From a virus: a stretch of DNA of 64,000 bases. The stretch is taken from IMG/VR virus record IMGVR_UViG_3300017971_000027, positions 1-64,000 of that record, one strand, 5' to 3'. Below the pieces are notes generated by a model. The model did not search any database, was not told the DNA's origin, and was given only the letters and a program-made list of their open reading frames with translations. This document shows, piece by piece, positions 21,283-34,390 of the stretch. Position 1 is the first letter of the stretch. Each line of letters opens with the position of its first letter. The position numbers and the translations under genes are program-made.

Positions 21283-22851
21283 CTACGCGCCGATATCAGT
21301 CCTGCTCATGAACCCCAGCCTCGGGTCCAGATCCCAGTCAGGGAAATACGTCAGTGCCAACGCATCGGCTTTGTCTGGTGAACGGCCTATCCGTTCTTTA
21401 ATATCTTTCTTTTTCTCCATCTGAATCTTGCCAGACGAATTCGTCTCATACGCCATCTCGCATAATTCTTCGAGCAGTTCATCGTCCGGCGGTAAACACA
21501 ACGTCGCGCCAAATGCAGGGTCTAAAGCATCCCGTAATTTCCAATAACATGCTGCGCGAACATTTAAGAATTGTCGCTGTCCAGTCTCGTCAGAAACGTG
21601 CCGTGCATGAGCGGAGAATTTAACTGGTATACAGTTCGTGATTCCTTGCTCTTCAATTCGCGCATAGACACCGGCACCTTCGCCGATAGCGTCAATAAAC
21701 CCTATCGCAGTCTTGTCACGGCCAAGAATGTTTTTCAGCTCCCCTGCATGTTTCATGTGGGGATTGCCAAGACCTCGACCGGGGATTTCGAATTCGGTCA
21801 CAATATCCCCGTATCGGTGGCAATATACCGAAGAGTCTGACCCCATACCAGCGATGTCCGCACCGAGTCGAAGCGAACCGTTTGTTTCCTTCTCATCATC
21901 TTCGTTCCAATTTGACCATCGTTTGAATGCCGCTTCGACCCAAGTGCGGGGAATGAGACAGTCTTCGGATTGGCGCGGAAATTGGCCAAGTACTTTGCCG
22001 AGCATAATATCTGAAGGTCGGTACCATTGGCCTTTATAACAGAAGTCGAATTCTGTGTCTGGTTTCGCGTCGATCTCTTTGATCTTCGTACACCACGACG
22101 GCATAAGAAGACGTTCTTCAATCCACGTCTTATCGACCTGACCCGGAATATTATTCTCGCCCGTCAGCACGTTCGGCGCGTTCAGACAGTTCAGAGTGAA
22201 TTTGGCGTAGAGGGGATCGAAGAATGATTTATAAAACCCGCCCGTTATCCGAACGGGGTTGCCTACGATCAATAGGCGGGAGTTACCGGTAAGAAGACCC
22301 TCTATCGCCCTAAATGTATCGTCCGTTATGCCGGAGGCCTCGGACATGACTACCAGAACATTTTCGCTGTGGTATCCTGTCCATGCCTCGGCTGATTTGT
22401 CAGCTGCTTTGAATCCTTCGAGATAATGGTTCGAACCTGAGATTTTGCCTTTTTCCGGCAATGTCAGACGTTGCGTCAGTAGCCGACCTTCCAACTCTAT
22501 GCCAAGGCTGGCCAACTTTTCGTTGGCGTTGTTCCACATGCCTGCAATCTCGGTCATCATGATCGACTTAACCTGACGCAGAGTTGGAGCGGTCGAGACT
22601 ACTTTAGAAGGAGAATTGAGGTACAAGAACGCCAGTGATATGGCAGCAGCAACGTAATCTTTACCTCGTGCGTGACCAGAACGGACAGTTGTGCGCCGAT
22701 GATCTTTGCAACACTGCACAGAATCGACGATTTCCTGTTGTTCAGGATCAAGATTTACGTGGAGAACGTCTCGAATCCATTCATTCCAGTGACCATCCTC
22801 GAAGTCGTTTTCGGGCGTTCCACGGTAGTATGTCTTAGATTTTATTTGCAT
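21283..22851 (-). CDS. terL: terminase large subunit
   Basis: Walker A SGHARGKD, VVMSEASG, GNP coupling motif, nuclease LGADIA, DAIGEGAGV, SPD.ADAL. Confidence 0.97.
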   Translation of the reverse strand: MQIKSKTYYRGTPENDFEDGHWNEWIRDVLHVNLDPEQQEIVDSVQCCKDHRRTTVRSGHARGKDYVAAAISLAFLYLNSPSKVVSTAPTLRQVKSIMMTEIAGMWNNANEKLASLGIELEGRLLTQRLTLPEKGKISGSNHYLEGFKAADKSAEAWTGYHSENVLVVMSEASGITDDTFRAIEGLLTGNSRLLIVGNPVRITGGFYKSFFDPLYAKFTLNCLNAPNVLTGENNIPGQVDKTWIEERLLMPSWCTKIKEIDAKPDTEFDFCYKGQWYRPSDIMLGKVLGQFPRQSEDCLIPRTWVEAAFKRWSNWNEDDEKETNGSLRLGADIAGMGSDSSVYCHRYGDIVTEFEIPGRGLGNPHMKHAGELKNILGRDKTAIGFIDAIGEGAGVYARIEEQGITNCIPVKFSAHARHVSDETGQRQFLNVRAACYWKLRDALDPAFGATLCLPPDDELLEELCEMAYETNSSGKIQMEKKKDIKERIGRSPDKADALALTYFPDWDLDPRLGFMSRTDIGA

Positions 22852-27427: not shown

Positions 27428-30400
27428 ATGAATAATTACCCACCGGGAGTAACAGGTAGCGAGCCACAGATAGTAGGTGATGAAGAGTTTGAAGAACTGT
27501 GTGAATGGATCTACAAGACGATGGCGATGTATGGTATCACAATTTGTGATATCAAGTGTTCGATAGCTGATTCGATAGGTGATGATGAAATGAACATGGG
27601 GAAAGTGAGGTGGCAGGATGTATATTGAAAACCTCGACGAAAGGTACGAAGCCGTCCAACGTTTAGACGACGTCGAAAAGTTCATCTTCTACTTCATGGG
27701 TAAGTCGGAATGGACGTGGCAGGAAGAATGGACCCACGGACAGCTGGCCCGAGAGAAGGAAGAGCTGGAAGCTGTTATAGAAGAATGGGACAAGGTAAAC
27801 TCTTGACACCGGTGATCGGGTTCACCGCAAAAAAAATAAAAAAAGGAACGACGAATGAAACTGACACAAGAGCAAGTCGACAACATAAACGAATTCTTCT
27901 TCTTCGACATGGAGCCAACGTTGGTAACTGGGACAAGAAGCGTCAACGAATTGGGTATAAAACCACTGTGCGACGCCTGCGGACAACGCGCCGATGTCGT
28001 AGTAACTCTTGATGATAATCCAGCATGGTTTGAAGAAGAGGAAGAAGAAGCCGAAGCCACCCAAACATTCATCTGCGGCACCTGCCTGCAAAACATGATC
28101 GCGATGATCGAGAAAAAGCAAAAAGAGCCGTGCATATAAAACAGAAGCCGAAAGCAATTCCAAAACATCTGTGTAAATCATGCGCGATATGGATAGGTTG
28201 CAGGTGGGTCTCGACTCGAGATATGGAAACTGAACCTATTGCAACGAACCATCTGCTCTGCCAAGAATGTTATAGGAAACGGTTCCTAGTTTACGCGCAC
28301 ATGATGATGGACGACGGGTTCGGACGACCTACGATTAAACAGTGGCTCGACGGACAGGAACACGGAAACACCGATTGGCCGGTCGATTTCGATATGGACA
28401 GGCCGGTCGAACAGGAAAAAATGGAACAGCCGTATCAGGTCACGTTGGCCGGTGCGGAACTGGACACGCCGATAATGGAGATCGTGGACCGGTGGCGGTG
28501 TCTGGATGTATTTGTCGGGGAAGATAGTAAACGATATGAAAGGTGCAGAAAATGAACTACGCTGTACAGGCAATGCAGGAAAAACCTTCAGACAAGAATG
28601 CGGAACTTATAAACGAAGGTATTGTACAAATACTCTGTCCAGACATTGTGACTGCAACCACATACGGAAAACTGCTCTCTCTACCAATCGGGGAAGTACA
28701 CAACGTCGTGGATAAAATCAGGGTCATCGAGTTCAGAATTATCATGGAACTCGAAAAAAACGAAGAAGGCATATGGCATGAGCCGACACAGATCGACAGA
28801 ATGATCGAAGAGGTAGAATAATGGAAGCCGTGACAGCTGACAAGAAAAAAATAACAACAGTATATTACGAAACCACGGTATACTCGTCGGGTGAAGCGTT
28901 CGAGATATTAGAGGCGCAGAATTTCGAGGGCGACAACGTAACAACAGAAGTCGCGAGCTATGCCTATGGACTACACTTGATTGTCTACGACGGCAAACAG
29001 GTCGTGGGCCGGTTCCGTCGCTGGGTGGGAGTCGTGGTGACGCCGTGAAGATAGCCGACCACAAACACGCCTACTGCATCGAATGTCTCTCGCACACCGG
29101 CCCGTTCATCGAGTTTGGCGACGAGTTTAGCACACACGAAATGTTCTGCTGGGACTGTATCAAAAAGGCCAACCGGATGCTGGGCGAGGATGCAGCTGAT
29201 AAAGACGAGAAGCTGGCCCGAACCATCGAACAAGTCAAAAAGGCAGGCTGGGGCGAAGATCTTGAACAGGATATAATCGACATGCTGCTCGAAGGCAAAG
29301 AGCTTACAATGAAGTTCAGGGAGCTTGGGCGATGATTGAAATAGTAGGTGGCGGGTACGAATATGGCGAATGCGACTGCTGTAAGAAAAAAGTCGGCAAG
29401 GCTGTAAGGTATATGAAGTCGTTCAAAGCGTGGGCCACACCAATGTATTACATCTGCGAGGACTGTATCGTGGAACATATAATCAGCAGGATTCCAGCAA
29501 AGGAAGAGTCGTTCACAGGTGGGGAAGGTGGCCATATACAAGACTGGCACGGAAGGGAAGGTTGAGATGATCGAGATAGTCAAAGACGATACAATACAGC
29601 GATGCGATAGCTGTGCAGGATGGTTCCGCTTGATGGCGGTGATAACCAAGTACGACGAACACTATCCAGACAGCCATAGGGACCGCCCACAGATATGCGC
29701 CGACTGTCTGGCAGCTGGTAATAGGAAGATGCTGGCAGCGGAGATCGTGGCAAGACTGAAGGAGGGAAGCTGATGGAAGTCACAATGATACCGGACGCGA
29801 ACATGAAAACCTTCAAAGACGGCTCGCGATACCCGTACTGTGACAACTGCGAATCCAACGGGCCGGTGATAGTAATTGACCAAGAAACGGAAGACGATAG
29901 CACGACCACGCTGATGCTATGCGCCCACTGCCTAAAGAAAGCGATGTACGCAGTCGAGGCCGAAGAGATGCGGGTCAGGGCGATACGGAGAAAGGCGAGG
30001 AAAGGCAGATGAAGACCACAGTCGTCAACCGGCACAAGGAACAGTTCGACGTCTACATAGGCCGAGGCTCGAAGTGGGGCAACCCGTTCGTAATAGGCCG
30101 AGACGGTAACCGCGAACAGGTAATCGAAATATATCGTCAATGGATAAAAGGTCAACACAAGTTGCTGGCCGACCTGCACGAGCTGAAAGGCAAAAGACTC
30201 GGGTGTTACTGTAAGCCGAAAGCGTGTCATGGAGATGTGTTAGTGGAGTTGGTGGAGGCCGGTTTTTCTGAAAAATAGGAAAAAATAAAAATGGACAAGC
30301 TCAAAAAACTCGAAGCTGCCTTGGTGTGGATTCGCAAAAACGCCGAGTGGATCAAACTATACGACCGAACAGCTCAACTATGTAAACAGTGTGGCCGTAC

Positions 30401-30790
30401 ACGCAATATCCCAGACGATGAACCGTGCGGAATCGAGATGAAACGAAAAGGACGGTACGGGTGCGACTTAAGCTGGCACACGCTCCACGGTAAAGGCGAA
30501 ACATACATCGACGCAATACTCGACCTGTACAATAGGAAATGTCATAGCAAAAACAAGATCAAACTTCGCAGGCTGGTTAATGGCGAAGCTGAGGAGAAAG
30601 AATTGTGGCCGTAAGACACTGCTGTTGGAACTGCCATGAGTACTGGGTAATCCCGCCAGAAGGATGGAACGGCAAAACGGCTCTGGTCTGCTCCGAGGAA
30701 TGTGCGGAGGAGTATAGAAATCGGGCGTGGGCCAAGAAAGTATACGCTGCACTGGACGGAGATGGTAGGAGCGATTTTTCTGAAAAATAG
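27428..30790 (+). other. rightward operon of small acidic/CxxC hypothetical proteins (27428..27628, 27618..27806, 27855..28139, 28130..28555, 28543..28821, 28821..29048, 29045..29335, 29332..29565, ~29567..29773, 29773..30012, 30291..30614, 30605..30790)
   Basis: Overlapping start/stop codons with RBSs, downstream of the promoter at 27353. Confidence 0.65.
30009..30278 (+). CDS. DUF4326 family protein
   Basis: DVYIGRGSKWGNPF...L.GK.LGCYCKPKACHGDVL. Confidence 0.9.
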   Translation: MKTTVVNRHKEQFDVYIGRGSKWGNPFVIGRDGNREQVIEIYRQWIKGQHKLLADLHELKGKRLGCYCKPKACHGDVLVELVEAGFSEK

Positions 30791-30861
30791 GAAAAATTGT
30801 GTGACACCCAAACACCCAGAACTACACCCCCCTGTCAAGCATATACCCCGCCCTTTGCACA

Positions 30862-30976
30862 TGTTCACTTTTCTGAACACGCACGTTTAATTTTCTGAAC
30901 ATCGGCCTTTTTTATGTTCACTTTTCTCAACATCGGCATGTTTAATTTTGTGAACGTATGTTTAATAATGTGAACG
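30862..30976. repeat. five tandem imperfect palindromes YGTTYA-N6-TSAACR
   Basis: Copies start at 30862, 30884, 30915, 30939 and 30959. Confidence 0.8.
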
Positions 30977-31372
30977 TCAACCTAGTTGCATTGCCCCGGA
31001 TCCCGGCTCTCGATGCCCCGGAGAGAGCCCAAATAATGCCCCAAATAATGCCCCAAATCAGACCGGGAGAGAGCCGGGATCCGGGAGCCCCGGAGAGAGA
31101 GCCCCGGAGAGAGAGCCCAAATTTGCCCGGAGAGAGCCGATCCGATCCGGGGTATACCTTGCCCCAAATCCCGGATCGGATCGGATTATACCCCTAATTT
31201 GCCCCATTACGCCCGGGATGGAATACCCCGGAGAGAGCCGGGATCCGGATCGGGATTTGCCCCGGCTCCGGGGCTCCCTCATAATGCCCCAAATTTGCCC
31301 GGAGAGCCCCAAATAATAAGAGCCCCGATCCATGTTACCGGATCGGGGCTCGATGCCCGGGATGGGGCTCTA

Positions 31373-32161
31373 TTAGACGGATCGTGCTATACTCTCCCGG
31401 GCTCTATTGGATCGGCTCCCATGGACCGGAATTACCATACCCCGTAGCGCGCCTATAGTCCGGAGCCGGGGGGATTCCAAATCCGGGATCGATCCCATGA
31501 ACGGTTTCACAACTCCCCTGCACAACTGACAATCTGCACACTCTCTCCCGGAGAGAGCCGGACACACAGTCTCCCATGGGAGCAAATCTGATTTTATCAA
31601 TTCCAAATCAGACCGGGGATCCGTTCGGAAGGTATTCCATCCCATGGAATGAGCCCGGGCGCATTCGTCCAAATTGTCAACACTAGCACATACCAGATAC
31701 CGGAGCCGGGGATCGGCGCTCTCCCATGAATGAGTGTACCCCGTCCACCCGATCTTTGGTCTTGCTCTATACCGGAGCAAATCCATCAAGACATTGATCG
31801 GGAGAGCGGCGGGATCCCCATATGAGCCGATCCGGATCGGTTTGTTATTTGGAATGAGCCGGGGATCCGTGAAATCATATGAGCCCCGTTTATAAGCTCT
31901 ATAAACGGATCCGGGCGCTTGGTGGGGGAGCACATAACATCCGGATCCGGATCGGAATTTACACTCCCCACACACACTCCGATCCGCTCCGGTCTTGACG
32001 GCTTGGCATGGACTCATGTCAGACCGTATGATCCAACTCTGCACCATATCCCCGGTCTTGATATTTTGGGATTTGCTCTCTAATCCGGAGAGCACACACA
32101 GGATCTTGTTTCCATCTATTTGGGATTTGCCATTGTAAACTATCGTGCTATTCGCATTCAT
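31373..32161 (-). CDS. GP88/DUF7227-like Cys-rich phage protein
   Basis: N.KTG.M.Q, CG.C.....CY, RIGSYGDPAA, WTGYTH.W, ASVD, CP......C..C.LC. Confidence 0.7.
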   Translation of the reverse strand: MNANSTIVYNGKSQIDGNKILCVLSGLESKSQNIKTGDMVQSWIIRSDMSPCQAVKTGADRSVCGECKFRSGSGCYVLPHQAPGSVYRAYKRGSYDFTDPRLIPNNKPIRIGSYGDPAALPINVLMDLLRYRARPKIGWTGYTHSWESADPRLRYLVCASVDNLDECARAHSMGWNTFRTDPRSDLELIKSDLLPWETVCPALSGRECADCQLCRGVVKPFMGSIPDLESPRLRTIGALRGMVIPVHGSRSNRARESIARSV

Positions 32162-32367
32162 GATTTTATCCCCTTTACGTAATCCATCCCGTATACGGCG
32201 GGACGATGCCAATCCACCCGACACAACTCATCGATCGCCAAATCCAACTCATCAAGGGACCGTACCGCTCGAAACATCCGGACGATCCGATCCCGGTCTG
32301 ATACGCTCCGGACCCGCTCCCGGGCAAATCCGATCCATCTCATAGATTCCGCAAATACTGATATCAT
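32158..32367 (-). CDS. hypothetical protein
   Basis: Coupled to its neighbours by ATGA overlaps. Confidence 0.5.
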   Translation of the reverse strand: MISVFAESMRWIGFARERVRSVSDRDRIVRMFRAVRSLDELDLAIDELCRVDWHRPAVYGMDYVKGIKS

Positions 32368-32546
32368 GATACGGCCCCCTCATCAACTCCGATCCCGTAG
32401 TTGTCCAACAACTCATCGATCCACCCCATGAGCGCGACATATCCCGGATCGACGCTATCCCGGAGCCCTATAGACGGATCGTCCGGAGCGGATCCCTCAT
32501 CTATCAACTCATCCCATCTCTCTATCAACTCATAGACTGTCAACAT
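32364..32546 (-). CDS. small acidic hypothetical protein
   Basis: Start MLTVYEL at 32546 with RBS GGGAG, downstream of the promoter at 32639. Confidence 0.6.
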   Translation of the reverse strand: MLTVYELIERWDELIDEGSAPDDPSIGLRDSVDPGYVALMGWIDELLDNYGIGVDEGAVS

Positions 32547-32610
32547 GGTCTCAACTCCCGGGGCTCTGCCCCTTGACGGCTCCCACCATGGGAGCCCCAT
32601 TAACACCGTG

Positions 32611-32639
32611 ATCTTATCATATCCCCGGGCCCCTGTCAA
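32611..32639 (-). promoter_or_regulatory. sigma70 promoter
   Basis: TTGACA-N17-TAAGAT with extended TG. Confidence 0.7.
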
Positions 32640-32994
32640 GAACAAAAATAAGTAATAAATCCGGAGCCCGATCCGGAGCCCGGGATCCCGGGGCAAATCA
32701 GGGGCAAATCCGGGGCAAATTATGAGCCGGGGATCGGGGCTCCGGGAGAGCCGATCTGGGAGCCGGGATCCGGGAGCGGGATCGGGCTCATAATAAGACC
32801 ACGCGCCTACACGTACAATTCCCATGCCATGTAGCAAAAAGTAAACATGTCTCATTAAGCGTTTAAATTCTAAACGAGACAGTCCGATTACAATTCTGTA
32901 ATTTTAAACATCCGATCTGGCATGAATCTTGCGTGGGGGATATCACGCACTGAACATATGTTCAGTACCCCCTCTATATATGGGCAGATATCGC

Positions 32995-33044
<50 letters not shown>

Positions 33045-33939
33045 GCAAAATGAAACACTGGGTGAAATCACGCAGGCAAGAATCGTGCCAGACTGGCCAG
33101 AAATCGCGCAACGTCCGATAATGTACGTTATGTAACGTTATCTGGACACAAAGTGGGGTATATCACCCGATTTTGGGGCATTTCACCCAGCAAAATCAAC
33201 GCAAACGTTTGCGTGGCCTGAATTACAATTTCGAAAGTAAACGTTTGCGCCCCAACAGCCCGGCTTTGTGATGCAAAGTGCGAATAATGAGGTCGGCTCG
33301 GGTGTGTGTACATCCAGCGTACATGTGTGTGTGCGTGTGTGTCCGCGTGTGTGTCAGAAATCCTACCAAAATGTATGAATTACGAAATTGTAATCGGGAA
33401 AACTGGCCGAAAATTTGCAAAAACCCCTTATTTTCGCACTTTTTGTCAACAGAAAAATTTGCACGGAGCGCATATTCCCACCTTCCAGACCGTCTGTACA
33501 TTCGATGTACATACCCTGTACACTGAGTGTACGTCATTATTGTATACGACTGTATACATTTTGTATACACTTTGCCGTAACCTGTTGATTAGCAACAGTT
33601 AGCAGATATGTGGCAGATATAGGAACCATTGCTTTTTGAAACGACTGCTCAGATGTTTGTCTGAATCGTTCCGATCTTTTCCCTGTTCCGGTAGCTTGGA
33701 TTGTGGTTACCATTTCCCGTCAGGCTTTCGAGAATCGTTTCTAACGGACGGGATTACTCTGGACGACTCTCGGGTAGGGTACCACCTTGGTCGGGCCTTA
33801 GAAGCGAAATTTGGAGGCCTCTGGTTGGTTCTGGTTGACCTTGGACTGTTGGTGATGCTGATGCTGGCTCGAAAGGCGGTAAAATTGGCGTGTAACGGGC
33901 GAAGTGATCGTGGGGCAGGTCTTGGTATACCTTGGATAT

Positions 33940-33977
33940 AAAAAAGGCCCCCTGAACGTTGTACTGTCCAGAGGGCC
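33940..33977 (-). terminator. rho-independent terminator
   Basis: GGCCCTCTGGAC...GTTCAGGGGGCC followed by a T tract. Confidence 0.75.
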
Positions 33978-33991
33978 GAGCCTGATGCCGG

Positions 33992-34390
33992 TTACAGGGA
34001 CTGTTGCCTTTTGATGCTGCCCATCCACCGGTTGGCGAATGTTGCGAGGTCTTTCTGAAGTTTCGGGCGGACGAGCGTTTTGCCGTTGTCGAACTGGACT
34101 GCGACTTGATACATACCGAGGCTGTCCTGCCGGTACGTCATCGGGTAGACTTCGCCGTTGAGGTCTGCCAGCAGGAACGTCATATCAGGGTCGCTCATGA
34201 GGTCGCCGTTCTGTTCGAAGTAGTGGGTGACGCTGTAGACTTTGCCGAGGGGCGTTTGGGTCAGCAGGTGGACTGAGACCGGCATGTAGGTACCGTTGCT
34301 GTTGTCGACCTTCCGGCCTTCGCCGTACTCGGTGATACCTGCGATTAGTTTCTGGAAAGTCTTGGTTGCGGTCTTGCTCAAGCTTTTCAT
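33992..34390 (-). CDS. DUF6908-like protein
   Basis: YMPVSV, SVTHYFEQNGDLMSDPDM.F, P..YRQD, F...W..NI-type ending. Confidence 0.75.
   Translation of the reverse strand: MKSLSKTATKTFQKLIAGITEYGEGRKVDNSNGTYMPVSVHLLTQTPLGKVYSVTHYFEQNGDLMSDPDMTFLLADLNGEVYPMTYRQDSLGMYQVAVQFDNGKTLVRPKLQKDLATFANRWMGSIKRQQSL

What the first reader, a model, noticed from the sequence alone, without database searches (positions are those of the whole stretch)
30990..32790. 1.8-kb island crowded with restriction-site hexamers that seem absent from the other 62 kb
Seen: I count at least ten GGATCC here, plus many CCCGGG, TCCGGA, CCATGG and GRGCYC (GAGCCC/GGGCTC). By eye I found none of these outside the island, where e.g. 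CCATG and TCCGG take other following bases. Conversely CAGC/GCTG and GTCGAC, common elsewhere, are scarce inside. The bias runs through three intact genes and their promoter, so it shapes codon choice and is not a simple repeat. The island is bounded by an operator-like array on the left and a (TG)23 tract on the right. Inference: a segment under an opposite restriction/methylation regime. Options are first-injected DNA with a restricted vocabulary, a decoy/sink for restriction enzymes, a display of host-methylated 'self' marks, or import from a phage of another host.
Basis: partly seen in the sequence, partly recalled or inferred. Interest (0 to 1): 0.8.

Follow-up and report, generated by a model that had tools for sequence, protein, structure and literature searches.

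The report
Phage gene cassette in private DNA words
A 1.8-kb, three-gene cassette in an 84-kb marine phage is written, in genes and spacers alike, in a handful of short DNA words, so five restriction sites that the rest of the genome has purged completely occur 55 times there; it is most likely an imported accessory unit, and what maintains its vocabulary is unknown.

Summary
In the complete 83,796-bp virus record, GGATCC (11), TCCGGA (11), CCCGGG (9), CCATGG (4) and GRGCYC (20) occur only in 30992-32800. CAGC/GCTG occurs 756 times outside and never inside.

The island is the genome's only strong compositional outlier. Its edges are sharp, and it is contiguous in contigs from two sequencing runs.

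It is a self-contained unit on the minus strand: a sigma-70 promoter unlike the phage's own promoter family, three overlapping genes (the last a widespread Fe-S protein of unknown function) and a terminator. Inverted arms of word arrays bracket it.

The hexamers are not selected as sites. They occur at the rate expected from their half-sites and are by-products of abundant SGATCS, YCCGGR, GAGCC, C4/G4, GAGAG and CAAAT words. These words cover about 75% of the arms, about 35% of the genes and 3.5% of the bulk.

The bulk genome avoids about 25 restriction-type sites. The island escapes the purge for five of them.

Best reading (0.45): a moron-like cassette imported with a vocabulary acquired elsewhere. 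The decoy and first-injected readings have little support.

No relatives of this phage were found, so import and in-place selection cannot be separated. This scan has noted at least eight similar "private vocabulary" cassettes in other phages.

The parts
30863..30990 (.). Iteron or operator-like array (five copies of about 17-31 nt, GTTTAAT..GTGAAC / TGTTCAC..CTGAACA) just left of the island. It is written in bulk vocabulary and is not part of the island.
30992..31319 (+). Left arm: a non-coding word array that is C-rich on the + strand. The words are strand-polar: CCGGAGAG x6 of the island's 8, GCCCCAAAT x5, ATTTGCCC x4. It has four G-quadruplex-type motifs on the - strand and long perfect inverted repeats (30995-31011/31069-31085; 31137-31151/31170-31184). 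77% of it is covered by six word families.
   Evidence: it folds far better than shuffles on both strands (z -5.4 and -6.2)
31320..31351 (-). Intrinsic-terminator-like hairpin (13-bp stem, 9 GC pairs, then TTATTATTTG) 22 nt after the stop codon of the last gene.
31373..32161 (-). GP88-like gene (262 aa, P0001). It matches phrog_2554 at E 9e-55 and has 2,928 homologues at up to 47% identity. There are no Pfam, NCBIfam or PADLOC hits. Invariant Cys64/67/75 and Cys200/208/211/214 suggest Fe-S clusters. The fold is confident (pLDDT 90), and its weak best structural matches are radical-SAM enzymes (QueE, Z 5.0).
32158..32367 (-). orf69 (69 aa). Its stop overlaps the GP88-like start (ATGA). No homologues were found.
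32364..32546 (-). orf60 (60 aa, very acidic: about 16 D/E against 2 R). It is the first gene after the promoter, and its stop overlaps the orf69 start (ATGA). No homologues were found.
32611..32639 (-). Sigma-70-type promoter TTGACA-17-TGaTAAGAT. It lacks the flanking signature of the phage's own promoter family (aaacctcTTGACA-18-tgtggTATAAT, about 14 copies).
32641..32800 (+). Right arm: a non-coding word array that is G-rich on the + strand, so it is inverted relative to the left arm. It has GGGGCAAAT x3 at 11-bp phasing (32690-32720) about 50-85 nt upstream of the -35 hexamer, GGATCC/CCGGAG palindromes, and three G-quadruplex-type motifs on the + strand. A 15-nt perfect inverted repeat pairs it with the left end (30995-31009 / 32760-32774).
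32997..33043 (.). (TG)23.5 microsatellite, 197 nt right of the island in a 1.2-kb non-coding stretch. That stretch also holds an imperfect (TG)n at 33324-33354 and several palindromes. It is the only place where the run contigs break.

Best explanation
The island is a self-contained accessory transcription unit of the moron type. Its parts, on the minus strand, are a host-type promoter, three translationally coupled genes and a terminator, bracketed by two inverted arms of short-word arrays. It sits in the non-coding zone where the phage's two gene blocks converge, next to an iteron array.

Its DNA, genes and spacers alike, is written in a private and restricted word set: SGATCS, YCCGGR, GAGCC, C4/G4, GAGAG and CAAAT. 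This vocabulary was most likely fixed while the cassette lived in another phage lineage under a different restriction regime. The cassette then moved here by horizontal transfer.

The five 'restriction' hexamers are passive by-products of these words. They pile up only because the cassette has not been through the purge that removed about 25 restriction-type sites from the other 82 kb.

Shown: the anatomy, the sharp boundaries, the composition, the neutrality of the palindromes, and physical continuity in contigs.

Inferred: the horizontal origin; that the left-arm hairpins act as a two-way transcription barrier between the convergent units; and that the phased GGGGCAAAT array upstream of the promoter and the other words are protein-binding sites.
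For: The boundaries are sharp (30992 and 32800) and there is only one such segment in 83.8 kb.

The unit has its own promoter, which differs from the phage's family of about 14 promoters, its own terminator, and ATGA-coupled genes.

Codon usage departs from the bulk (z = 3.0) while GC3 is the same, and the coding strand lacks the bulk's A-richness.

The palindromes are at neutral half-site frequency inside the island and absent outside it.

In 63 other phage loci, GP88-like genes tend to be compositional outliers: the rank is 0.25 or lower in 52% of loci. They sit within 1 kb of word arrays 7 times more often than control positions do (19% against 2.6%, P = 0.007), and each array uses different words. 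This fits a mobile cassette that travels with its own cis-acting arrays.

The phage has no DNA methyltransferase, Mom or DpdA, so it must rely on site avoidance, and the 55 sites have no phage-encoded protection.

Contigs from two runs bridge both junctions with no differences.
Against: No donor was found and no relative of this phage was found, so an empty site or a differently worded allele could not be shown.

The codon preferences are contradictory: CGG, GGA/GGG and CCC alongside GAT, TTG and ATA, with GC3 unchanged. This is not an ordinary genome-wide signature, so import only moves the question of what made the vocabulary to the donor.

The other sites that the bulk avoids are still under-represented in the island (3 against 8.3, P = 0.02; CGATCG 1 against 5.5). 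This could mean the island has long shared a host with the bulk.

No target-site duplication or recombinase was found.

In other phages the array words are shared with the GP88 gene only weakly (z of 3.9 or less, against 12.8 and 21.2 here).
Confidence: 0.45

Rival explanations
1. The island is a functional DNA element maintained in place. The words are recognition units for something that reads double-stranded DNA across the whole 1.8 kb. Candidates are a cassette-specific DNA-binding protein (orf69, orf60 or a host factor), or host orphan methyltransferases acting at GATC and CCGG, as with the HIP words of cyanobacteria. Selection keeps the words dense even inside genes. The restriction sites are tolerated because the region is shielded or because the present host lacks those enzymes.
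For: The words occur in all three codon frames and on both strands.

In the coding sequences, site and word counts exceed a synonymous shuffle that keeps the island's own codon usage: five-site set 24 against 8.6 +/- 2.5, GATC 27 against 18.4, CCGG 27 against 13.5.

Arm words are 5 to 7 times enriched in the GP88-like gene (z = 12.8 and 21.2).

6-mer recurrence is island-wide (3-4 times the bulk at 200-770 nt) rather than only local.

GGGGCAAAT is phased at 11 bp upstream of the promoter. The same tandem word occurs in 28 other viral stretches in iteron-like or arm-site-like positions.

The other avoided sites stay rare in the island, as expected if it shares the bulk's host history.

HIP-type words (GGGATCCC, rCCGGy) are a precedent for iterated GATC/CCGG palindromes in genes and spacers (PMC4390886).
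Against: No reader of the words has been identified. The phage has no DNA methyltransferase, and the small ORFs have no recognisable DNA-binding family.

The palindromes themselves show no excess over half-site expectation.

With no relatives, conservation of the words cannot be shown. Known HIPs are genome-wide, not confined to 1.8 kb.
Confidence: 0.3
2. The vocabulary has a mutational origin and no function. The island lies in a slippage- and template-switch-prone zone ('cryptic simplicity'), where short motifs are duplicated, inverted and spread by repair. These processes have gradually overwritten synonymous positions.
For: The neighbourhood is rich in simple sequence, which is unusual for a phage: (TG)23.5, a second imperfect (TG)n, GAGAGAG tracts and short tandem units of 5 to 14 nt in both arms.

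Direct 6-mer recurrence peaks at 12-24 nt and declines with distance.

The vocabulary is closed under reverse complement, as expected from inverted duplication.
Against: In the coding block the decline with distance is mild (1.95 falling to 1.0 per 1000 pairs, against 0.3 in the bulk), so most of the effect is island-wide rather than local.

The edges are sharp to within tens of bases.

The GP88-like protein is intact and aligns along its length with homologues, with all 37 invariant residues kept and only serine clearly raised.

Slippage does not explain the complete absence of CAGC/GCTG.
Confidence: 0.12
3. The island is an anti-restriction device: first-entering DNA, or a decoy or sink that titrates restriction enzymes or displays host methylation.
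For: The first gene after a host-type promoter encodes a very acidic 60-aa protein, as DNA-mimic anti-restriction proteins are. This is a resemblance only.

The island is the only place in the genome with these five sites.

The true DNA termini are unknown.
Against: Leading regions known from T5-like and T7-like phages are depleted of sites, not enriched (PMC12455610, from its abstract; T5 from my own knowledge).

The island lies 31 kb from the record's terminal repeat.

The sites are not enriched beyond their half-site frequencies.

A double-strand cut inside an 84-kb genome is not harmless, and nothing marks the island as excisable.
Confidence: 0.06
4. The island is an assembly artefact, that is, foreign DNA joined in by the assembler.
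For: Its composition is utterly unlike that of the flanks.
Against: Contigs from two runs, built by a different assembler from the IMG/VR record, bridge both junctions as one 50.6-kb piece with no differences. The same protein is on record on 3 contigs, the longest 83,819 bp. An insertion flanked on both sides by phage DNA would need two chimeric joins.
Confidence: 0.02

Closest known systems
Morons: independent transcription units inserted between phage genes (Hendrix/Juhala concept; reviewed in PMC3594210)
   Same: The island has its own promoter and terminator, sits between gene blocks, differs in nucleotide composition from its flanks, and carries accessory genes of unknown benefit.
   Different: Classical morons differ mainly in GC content. 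Here GC3 is unchanged, and the difference is a restricted word set that also fills the flanking arms. Insertion could not be shown, because no relatives are available. The phage shows no integrase, so there is no lysogenic-conversion context.
Restriction-site (palindrome) avoidance in phage genomes (Rusinov et al. 2018, PMC6286503)
   Same: The other 82 kb is a textbook case. CCWGG, GGATCC, CCATGG, GAGCTC, CACGTG, ACGCGT, GGCGCC and others occur 0-1 times against 8-46 expected.
   Different: The island breaks the avoidance for five specificities at 55 sites. A localised exemption of this kind is not part of the described phenomenon.
Highly iterated palindromes (HIP1 GCGATCGC; derivatives GGGATCCC and rCCGGy) of cyanobacteria (Elhai 2015, PMC4390886)
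   Same: They are GC-rich palindromic words with GATC or CCGG cores, present in genes and spacers alike at high density, maintained by an unknown process and linked to DNA methylation.
   Different: HIPs are genome-wide at 1-2 per kb and come with orphan methyltransferases. Here the words are confined to 1.8 kb at 6-20 per kb, the palindromes are not over-represented relative to their half-sites, and no methyltransferase was found in the phage.
First-step-transfer or leading regions of T5-like and T7-like phages (early-injected region and Type I restriction: PMC12455610)
   Same: Both are small blocks of early genes under host-type promoters, with repeat and hairpin tracts and their own oligonucleotide constraints.
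   Different: Those regions lie at a genome end and are depleted of restriction sites. This island is internal in the record and site-rich.
'Private vocabulary' cassettes noted earlier in this scan in other uncultivated phages (unchecked AI notes)
   Same: They are sharply bounded blocks of 2-6.5 kb containing a few genes, with genes and spacers built from a few short words, in genomes that otherwise avoid restriction sites. Classical avoidance does not explain them.
   Different: The words and genes differ. Here no relatives exist to show the 'same cassette, different dialect' pattern. I did find a weaker version around GP88-like genes in other phages.

Membership tests
Moron (independent accessory transcription unit in a phage genome) | Own promoter and own terminator flanking the gene(s) | tested here: met
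   TTGACA-17-TAAGAT promoter at 32639-32611 and a 13-bp-stem terminator at 31351-31320. These are consensus matches only; expression was not measured.
Moron (independent accessory transcription unit in a phage genome) | Nucleotide composition distinct from the surrounding genes | tested here: met
   Strongest 4-mer outlier in the genome, with sharp edges. Codon usage z = 3.0.
Moron (independent accessory transcription unit in a phage genome) | Inserted between genes that are adjacent in related phages | not testable with these tools
T5/T7-type leading (first-injected) region | Lies at the genome end that enters first | tested here: inconclusive
   The island is 31 kb from the record's 123-bp terminal repeat. 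That repeat may be an assembly overlap. Only contigs were available, not raw reads.
T5/T7-type leading (first-injected) region | Depleted of restriction sites relative to the rest of the genome | tested here: not met
   55 sites of five specificities inside, none outside.
Highly iterated palindrome (HIP) system | GC-rich palindromic 6-8-mers with a GATC or CCGG core, frequent in genes and spacers | tested here: met
   SGGATCCS 11 times and YCCGGR 39 times in 1.8 kb; GATC and CCGG occur in all three codon frames.
Highly iterated palindrome (HIP) system | Genome-wide distribution | tested here: not met
   Confined to 30992-32800 and absent from the other 82 kb.
Highly iterated palindrome (HIP) system | Cognate (orphan) DNA methyltransferase | tested here: not met
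   No PF01555, PF02086 or PF00145 in the phage. The host is unknown, so a host enzyme cannot be tested.
Transposon or insertion sequence | Terminal inverted repeats | tested here: inconclusive
   There is a 15-nt perfect inverted repeat at 30995-31009 / 32760-32774, and the arms are inverted overall. The same words recur inside the island, so this may be chance.
Transposon or insertion sequence | Transposase or recombinase, and a target-site duplication | tested here: not met
   No tyrosine or serine recombinase in the genome. No duplication was seen by eye at the edges. The GP88-like protein matches no transposase family.
Radical-SAM superfamily (for the GP88-like protein) | CxxxCxxC cluster motif in a partial TIM barrel | tested here: inconclusive
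   The invariant cysteines are CxxCx7C and Cx7CxxCxxC, not the canonical motif. The best structural matches are radical-SAM enzymes, but only at Z 5.0 or below. Foldseek gave nothing at E 0.001 or lower.

The most novel reading that the evidence does not exclude
The island is one instance of an undescribed class: small phage gene cassettes whose whole DNA, coding and non-coding, is kept in a lineage-private set of short words. The words are read by an unknown sequence-reading system, such as a cassette-specific DNA-binding or DNA-modifying protein, or host methylation in the manner of HIP words. In this view the GATC/CCGG/G-run words and the inverted arms are the working part. The exemption from restriction-site purging follows because the words cannot be given up.
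Probability: 0.3. Interest if true: 0.85.

Novelty: new variant of a known kind. Interest (0 to 1): 0.6.

Why it matters
Restriction-site avoidance is treated as a property of the whole phage genome. Here one sharply bounded cassette carries 55 copies of five sites that the other 82 kb has eliminated completely. Either selection by those enzymes is not acting now, which dates the purge relative to the acquisition, or this DNA is shielded or constrained in some unknown way.

The pressure acts on the DNA words themselves. It is strong enough to recode a conserved enzyme gene in all three frames. This scan has now seen similar private-vocabulary cassettes in several unrelated phages. If the words are read by a protein or a modification system, this would be a new kind of cis-acting code in phage genomes. 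It would also be a practical marker for mobile accessory cassettes.

Tried and rejected
Relatives and donor. I found none.
- blastn of 30000-34000 against 50,697 phage records gave no hit in the island.
- Exact island words in IMG/VR gave nothing.
- Protein-anchored scans with DUF6908, a left-flank gene and the portal in IMG/VR found no close relatives.
- The same held for a 475-aa neighbour and TerL in the metagenome contigs.
- No fetched locus resembles the island's 4-mer signature (maximum r = 0.46).

Expression. No RNA holder was listed, so this gives no evidence either way.

Function of the genes.
- Pfam, NCBIfam, PADLOC and the PDB sequence search gave nothing for any of the three proteins.
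- The ESM Atlas gave no usable hit for orf69 or orf60.
- No longer, fused forms of the GP88-like protein were found.
- Foldseek gave nothing against PDB at E 0.001 or lower.
- The small ORFs are not conserved upstream of GP88 homologues.

RNA. Rfam gave only sub-threshold noise. The coding mRNA is not markedly more structured than bulk genes, so RNA structure does not explain the vocabulary inside the genes.

Readings considered and dropped.
- PAM depletion: GAA, AAG and AGG are the rarest trinucleotides, but 15-21 copies of each remain.
- A simple difference in GC content: GC3 is the same as in the bulk.
- Phage-encoded methylation, Mom or 7-deazaguanine modification: none is encoded.
- An integrated element with an integrase: none is encoded.
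- GTCGAC scarcity inside the island: not significant, because only about 1 is expected.

Packaging type could not be inferred. The best TerL matches are 33% identical or less.
Full report
CONTEXT

The window is bases 1-64000 of a complete 83,796-bp IMG/VR virus record with a 123-bp terminal repeat. The phage is siphovirus-like. It has an SPP1-type portal, an SU10-type capsid protein, a tape-measure protein, a class II ribonucleotide reductase and a helicase.

Nearly all genes lie on the minus strand. A block of small plus-strand genes at 24.6-30.8 kb is the exception. The island lies in the 3.2-kb gap (30.8-34.0 kb) where the plus-strand block and the long minus-strand block converge.

Two runs hold the stretch, one from sediment (2018) and one from seawater (2021).

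1. THE OBSERVATION

It is confirmed for the whole genome.

- GGATCC 11, CCCGGG 9, TCCGGA 11, CCATGG 4 and GRGCYC 20 all lie inside 30990-32790. None lies outside.
- Order-3 Markov expectations for the other 82 kb are 8-25 per site.
- These are exactly the hexamers with at least 4 copies inside and at most 1 outside. 17% of island bases lie in a 6-mer that never occurs elsewhere, against a maximum of 0.7% in control windows.
- CAGC/GCTG is 0 inside against 756 outside, with about 16 expected inside. The absence of GTCGAC is not significant.
- A likelihood-ratio segmentation gives 30992-32800, with edges sharp to tens of bases and no second such segment.
- The island is the top 4-mer outlier and has the lowest k-mer complexity.
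- Logan contigs of both runs cover 29500-32987 as one 50.6-kb piece with no differences. They break only at the TG microsatellite.

2. ANATOMY

The parts are read on the minus strand.

- Promoter: a sigma-70 promoter, TTGACA-17-(TG)aTAAGAT, at 32639-32611.
- orf60 (32546-32364): very acidic.
- orf69 (32367-32158).
- A 262-aa GP88-like gene (32161-31373). The three genes are joined by ATGA stop/start overlaps.
- Terminator: a 13-bp-stem hairpin at 31351-31320.

The promoter does not belong to the phage's own promoter family. That family has about 14 copies of aaacctcTTGACA-18-tgtggTATAAT.

Two non-coding arms flank the unit.

- Left arm (30992-31319): it carries strand-polar words (CCGGAGAG x6 of the island's 8, GCCCCAAAT x5, ATTTGCCC x4) and long perfect inverted repeats.
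- Right arm (32641-32800): it carries GGGGCAAAT x3 at 11-bp phasing and GGATCC/CCGGAG palindromes, inverted relative to the left arm.

Eight of the genome's nine G-quadruplex-type motifs lie in the island. Those in the left arm are on the minus strand, and those in the right arm are on the plus strand. The left arm folds far better than shuffles on both strands (z = -5.4 and -6.2). This fits a two-way transcription barrier between the convergent units, which is an inference.

3. WHAT THE BIAS REALLY IS

The enrichment sits at the level of 3- and 4-mers.

- GATC occurs 44 times (about 5 expected), CCGG 58, CCCC/GGGG 47, and GGA/TCC is 3-fold up.
- GAA, AAG, CAG and AGG are 3-4-fold down.
- The hexamer counts equal the order-3 Markov expectation for the island.
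- They also equal the half-site expectation: GGATCC 11 against 14.2, TCCGGA 11 against 9.5, CCCGGG 9 against 10.8, CCATGG 4 against 3.8.

So the palindromes are neither selected for nor selected against here. In the bulk the same test gives 0 against 5.5, 7.8, 1.0 and 15.2.

Six word families cover 77% and 71% of the arms, 29-39% of the genes and 3.5% of the bulk.

In the genes the words occur in all three frames. They exceed a synonymous shuffle that keeps the island's own codon usage: 24 against 8.6 +/- 2.5 for the five sites. Arm words are enriched in the GP88-like gene at z = 12.8 and 21.2.

GC3 is the same as in the bulk: 0.56-0.62 against 0.54. This is therefore not a GC-content island.

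The vocabulary is symmetric under reverse complement, which points to double-stranded DNA rather than RNA as the level that matters. In line with this, the coding mRNA is only mildly structured.

4. RELATION TO RESTRICTION AVOIDANCE

The bulk avoids about 25 restriction-type words, including every CCWGG. It encodes no DNA methyltransferase of the three main families, no Mom and no DpdA.

The island violates the avoidance for five of these words. The others remain rare there: 3 against 8.3 +/- 2.7 in the coding sequences (P = 0.02), and CGATCG 1 against 5.5.

This is compatible with a donor that avoided a partly overlapping set of sites. It is equally compatible with long residence here and an unexplained exemption.

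5. COMPARATIVE EVIDENCE

The phage itself has no detectable relatives. The GP88-like family is large: 2,928 homologues, the nearest 47% identical.

In 63 other viral loci:

- The GP88 gene window ranks in the top quarter for compositional deviance in 52% of loci.
- Dense word arrays lie within about 1 kb of the gene in 19% of loci, against 2.6% of control positions (P = 0.007).
- Each array uses different words.
- Sharing of array words with the gene is weak there (z of 3.9 or less).

The cassette type 'array, then small ORFs, then GP88-like gene' therefore recurs. The wholesale recoding seen here is an extreme.

The right-arm word GGGGCAAAT-NN-GGGGCAAAT occurs in 28 other viral stretches. It is often about 100 bp from prophage ends next to tRNA genes, or in iteron-like runs. 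This suggests that such tandem words are protein-binding sites. That is a lead, not a test.

6. THE GENES

The GP88-like protein gives a confident model (pLDDT 90). It has invariant CxxCx7C and Cx7CxxCxxC cysteines. Its best structural matches are weak (Z 5.0 or below) and are almost all radical-SAM enzymes.

In one other phage (L004) a homologue sits beside a Mom-family gene and a DUF4942 methyltransferase-like gene. A role in DNA or nucleotide modification is possible but not shown. orf60 and orf69 have no recognisable relatives.

7. INTERPRETATION

The best-supported reading (0.45) is a moron-like accessory cassette that acquired its vocabulary elsewhere and was imported. The five hexamers are passive by-products that have not been purged.

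The main rival (0.30) is that the words are functional here and are kept by selection.

A purely mutational origin, 'cryptic simplicity', gets 0.12. The neighbourhood is unusually rich in simple repeats, but the recurrence of words is mostly island-wide rather than local.

The decoy and first-injected readings get 0.06, and an assembly artefact 0.02.

Import and in-place selection are not exclusive. Import only moves the question of what made the vocabulary to the donor.

This scan has recorded at least eight similar private-vocabulary cassettes in other phages (unchecked AI notes). If those notes hold, the phenomenon itself is the more interesting object.

8. VERDICT

Novelty: a new variant of a known kind, namely a compositionally foreign moron with an extreme, word-level signature. 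Interest: 0.6.

Noticed in passing
window 30863-30990 and 32950-32965: There is a five-copy iteron or operator-like array (GTTTAAT..GTGAAC / TGTTCAC..CTGAACA) just left of the island, and a perfect palindrome CTGAACATATGTTCAG 150 nt to its right. 4 of the genome's 13 CTGAACA/TGTTCAG words lie in these two places. This may be an origin or operator region that the island splits.
   Followed up: partly
whole genome, e.g. window 27323(-), 27353(+), 39058(-), 42889(+), 44412(+); beyond the window 65636-74944: The phage has about 14 near-identical promoters, aaacctcTTGACA-18-tgtggTATAAT. The island promoter is not one of them.
   Followed up: partly
whole genome outside 30992-32800: Restriction-type avoidance is extreme. 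CCWGG, CCATGG, GAGCTC, CACGTG, ACGCGT, GGCGCC, TACGTA, CGCGCG, GGGCAC and others occur 0 times against 8-46 expected, while GAATTC, GGTACC and GTATAC are over-represented. No DNA methyltransferase, Mom or DpdA is encoded.
   Followed up: partly
window 32997-33043 and 33324-33354: A pure (TG)23.5 microsatellite and a second imperfect (TG)n lie in a 1.2-kb non-coding stretch with TGTACA/TGTATAC palindromes. This is unusual for a phage. 31-mers at 33324-33354 reach depth 1750 in run X2, so other DNA in the sample shares this simple repeat.
   Followed up: no
L027, L033-L035, L040, L041 (IMG/VR contigs): Tandem GGGGCAAAT-NN-GGGGCAAAT lies about 100-150 nt from both ends of prophage-like contigs of about 36-38 kb, next to tRNA 3' ends. 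These look like integrase arm-type sites. Iteron-like runs of the same word occur in L022, L026 and L043.
   Followed up: no
L057, L060, L089, L099, L100, L118 (about 250-900 nt upstream of GP88-like genes): These loci carry non-coding arrays of lineage-specific short words. L057 has TTATCACA-type (DnaA-box-like) repeats. L089 and L118 have CTGTATA...TACAG palindromes that resemble LexA boxes.
   Followed up: partly
L004 1432-4743: A GP88-like homologue lies next to a DUF4942/methyltransferase-like 734-aa protein and a Mom-family protein. This hints that the family may belong to DNA-modification neighbourhoods.
   Followed up: no
window 21283-22851: The best match of the large terminase in the phage collection (33% identity) is a virus assigned to Methanosarcinales, followed by Streptomyces and Arthrobacter phages. 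The phage's promoters are nevertheless of the bacterial sigma-70 type.
   Followed up: no
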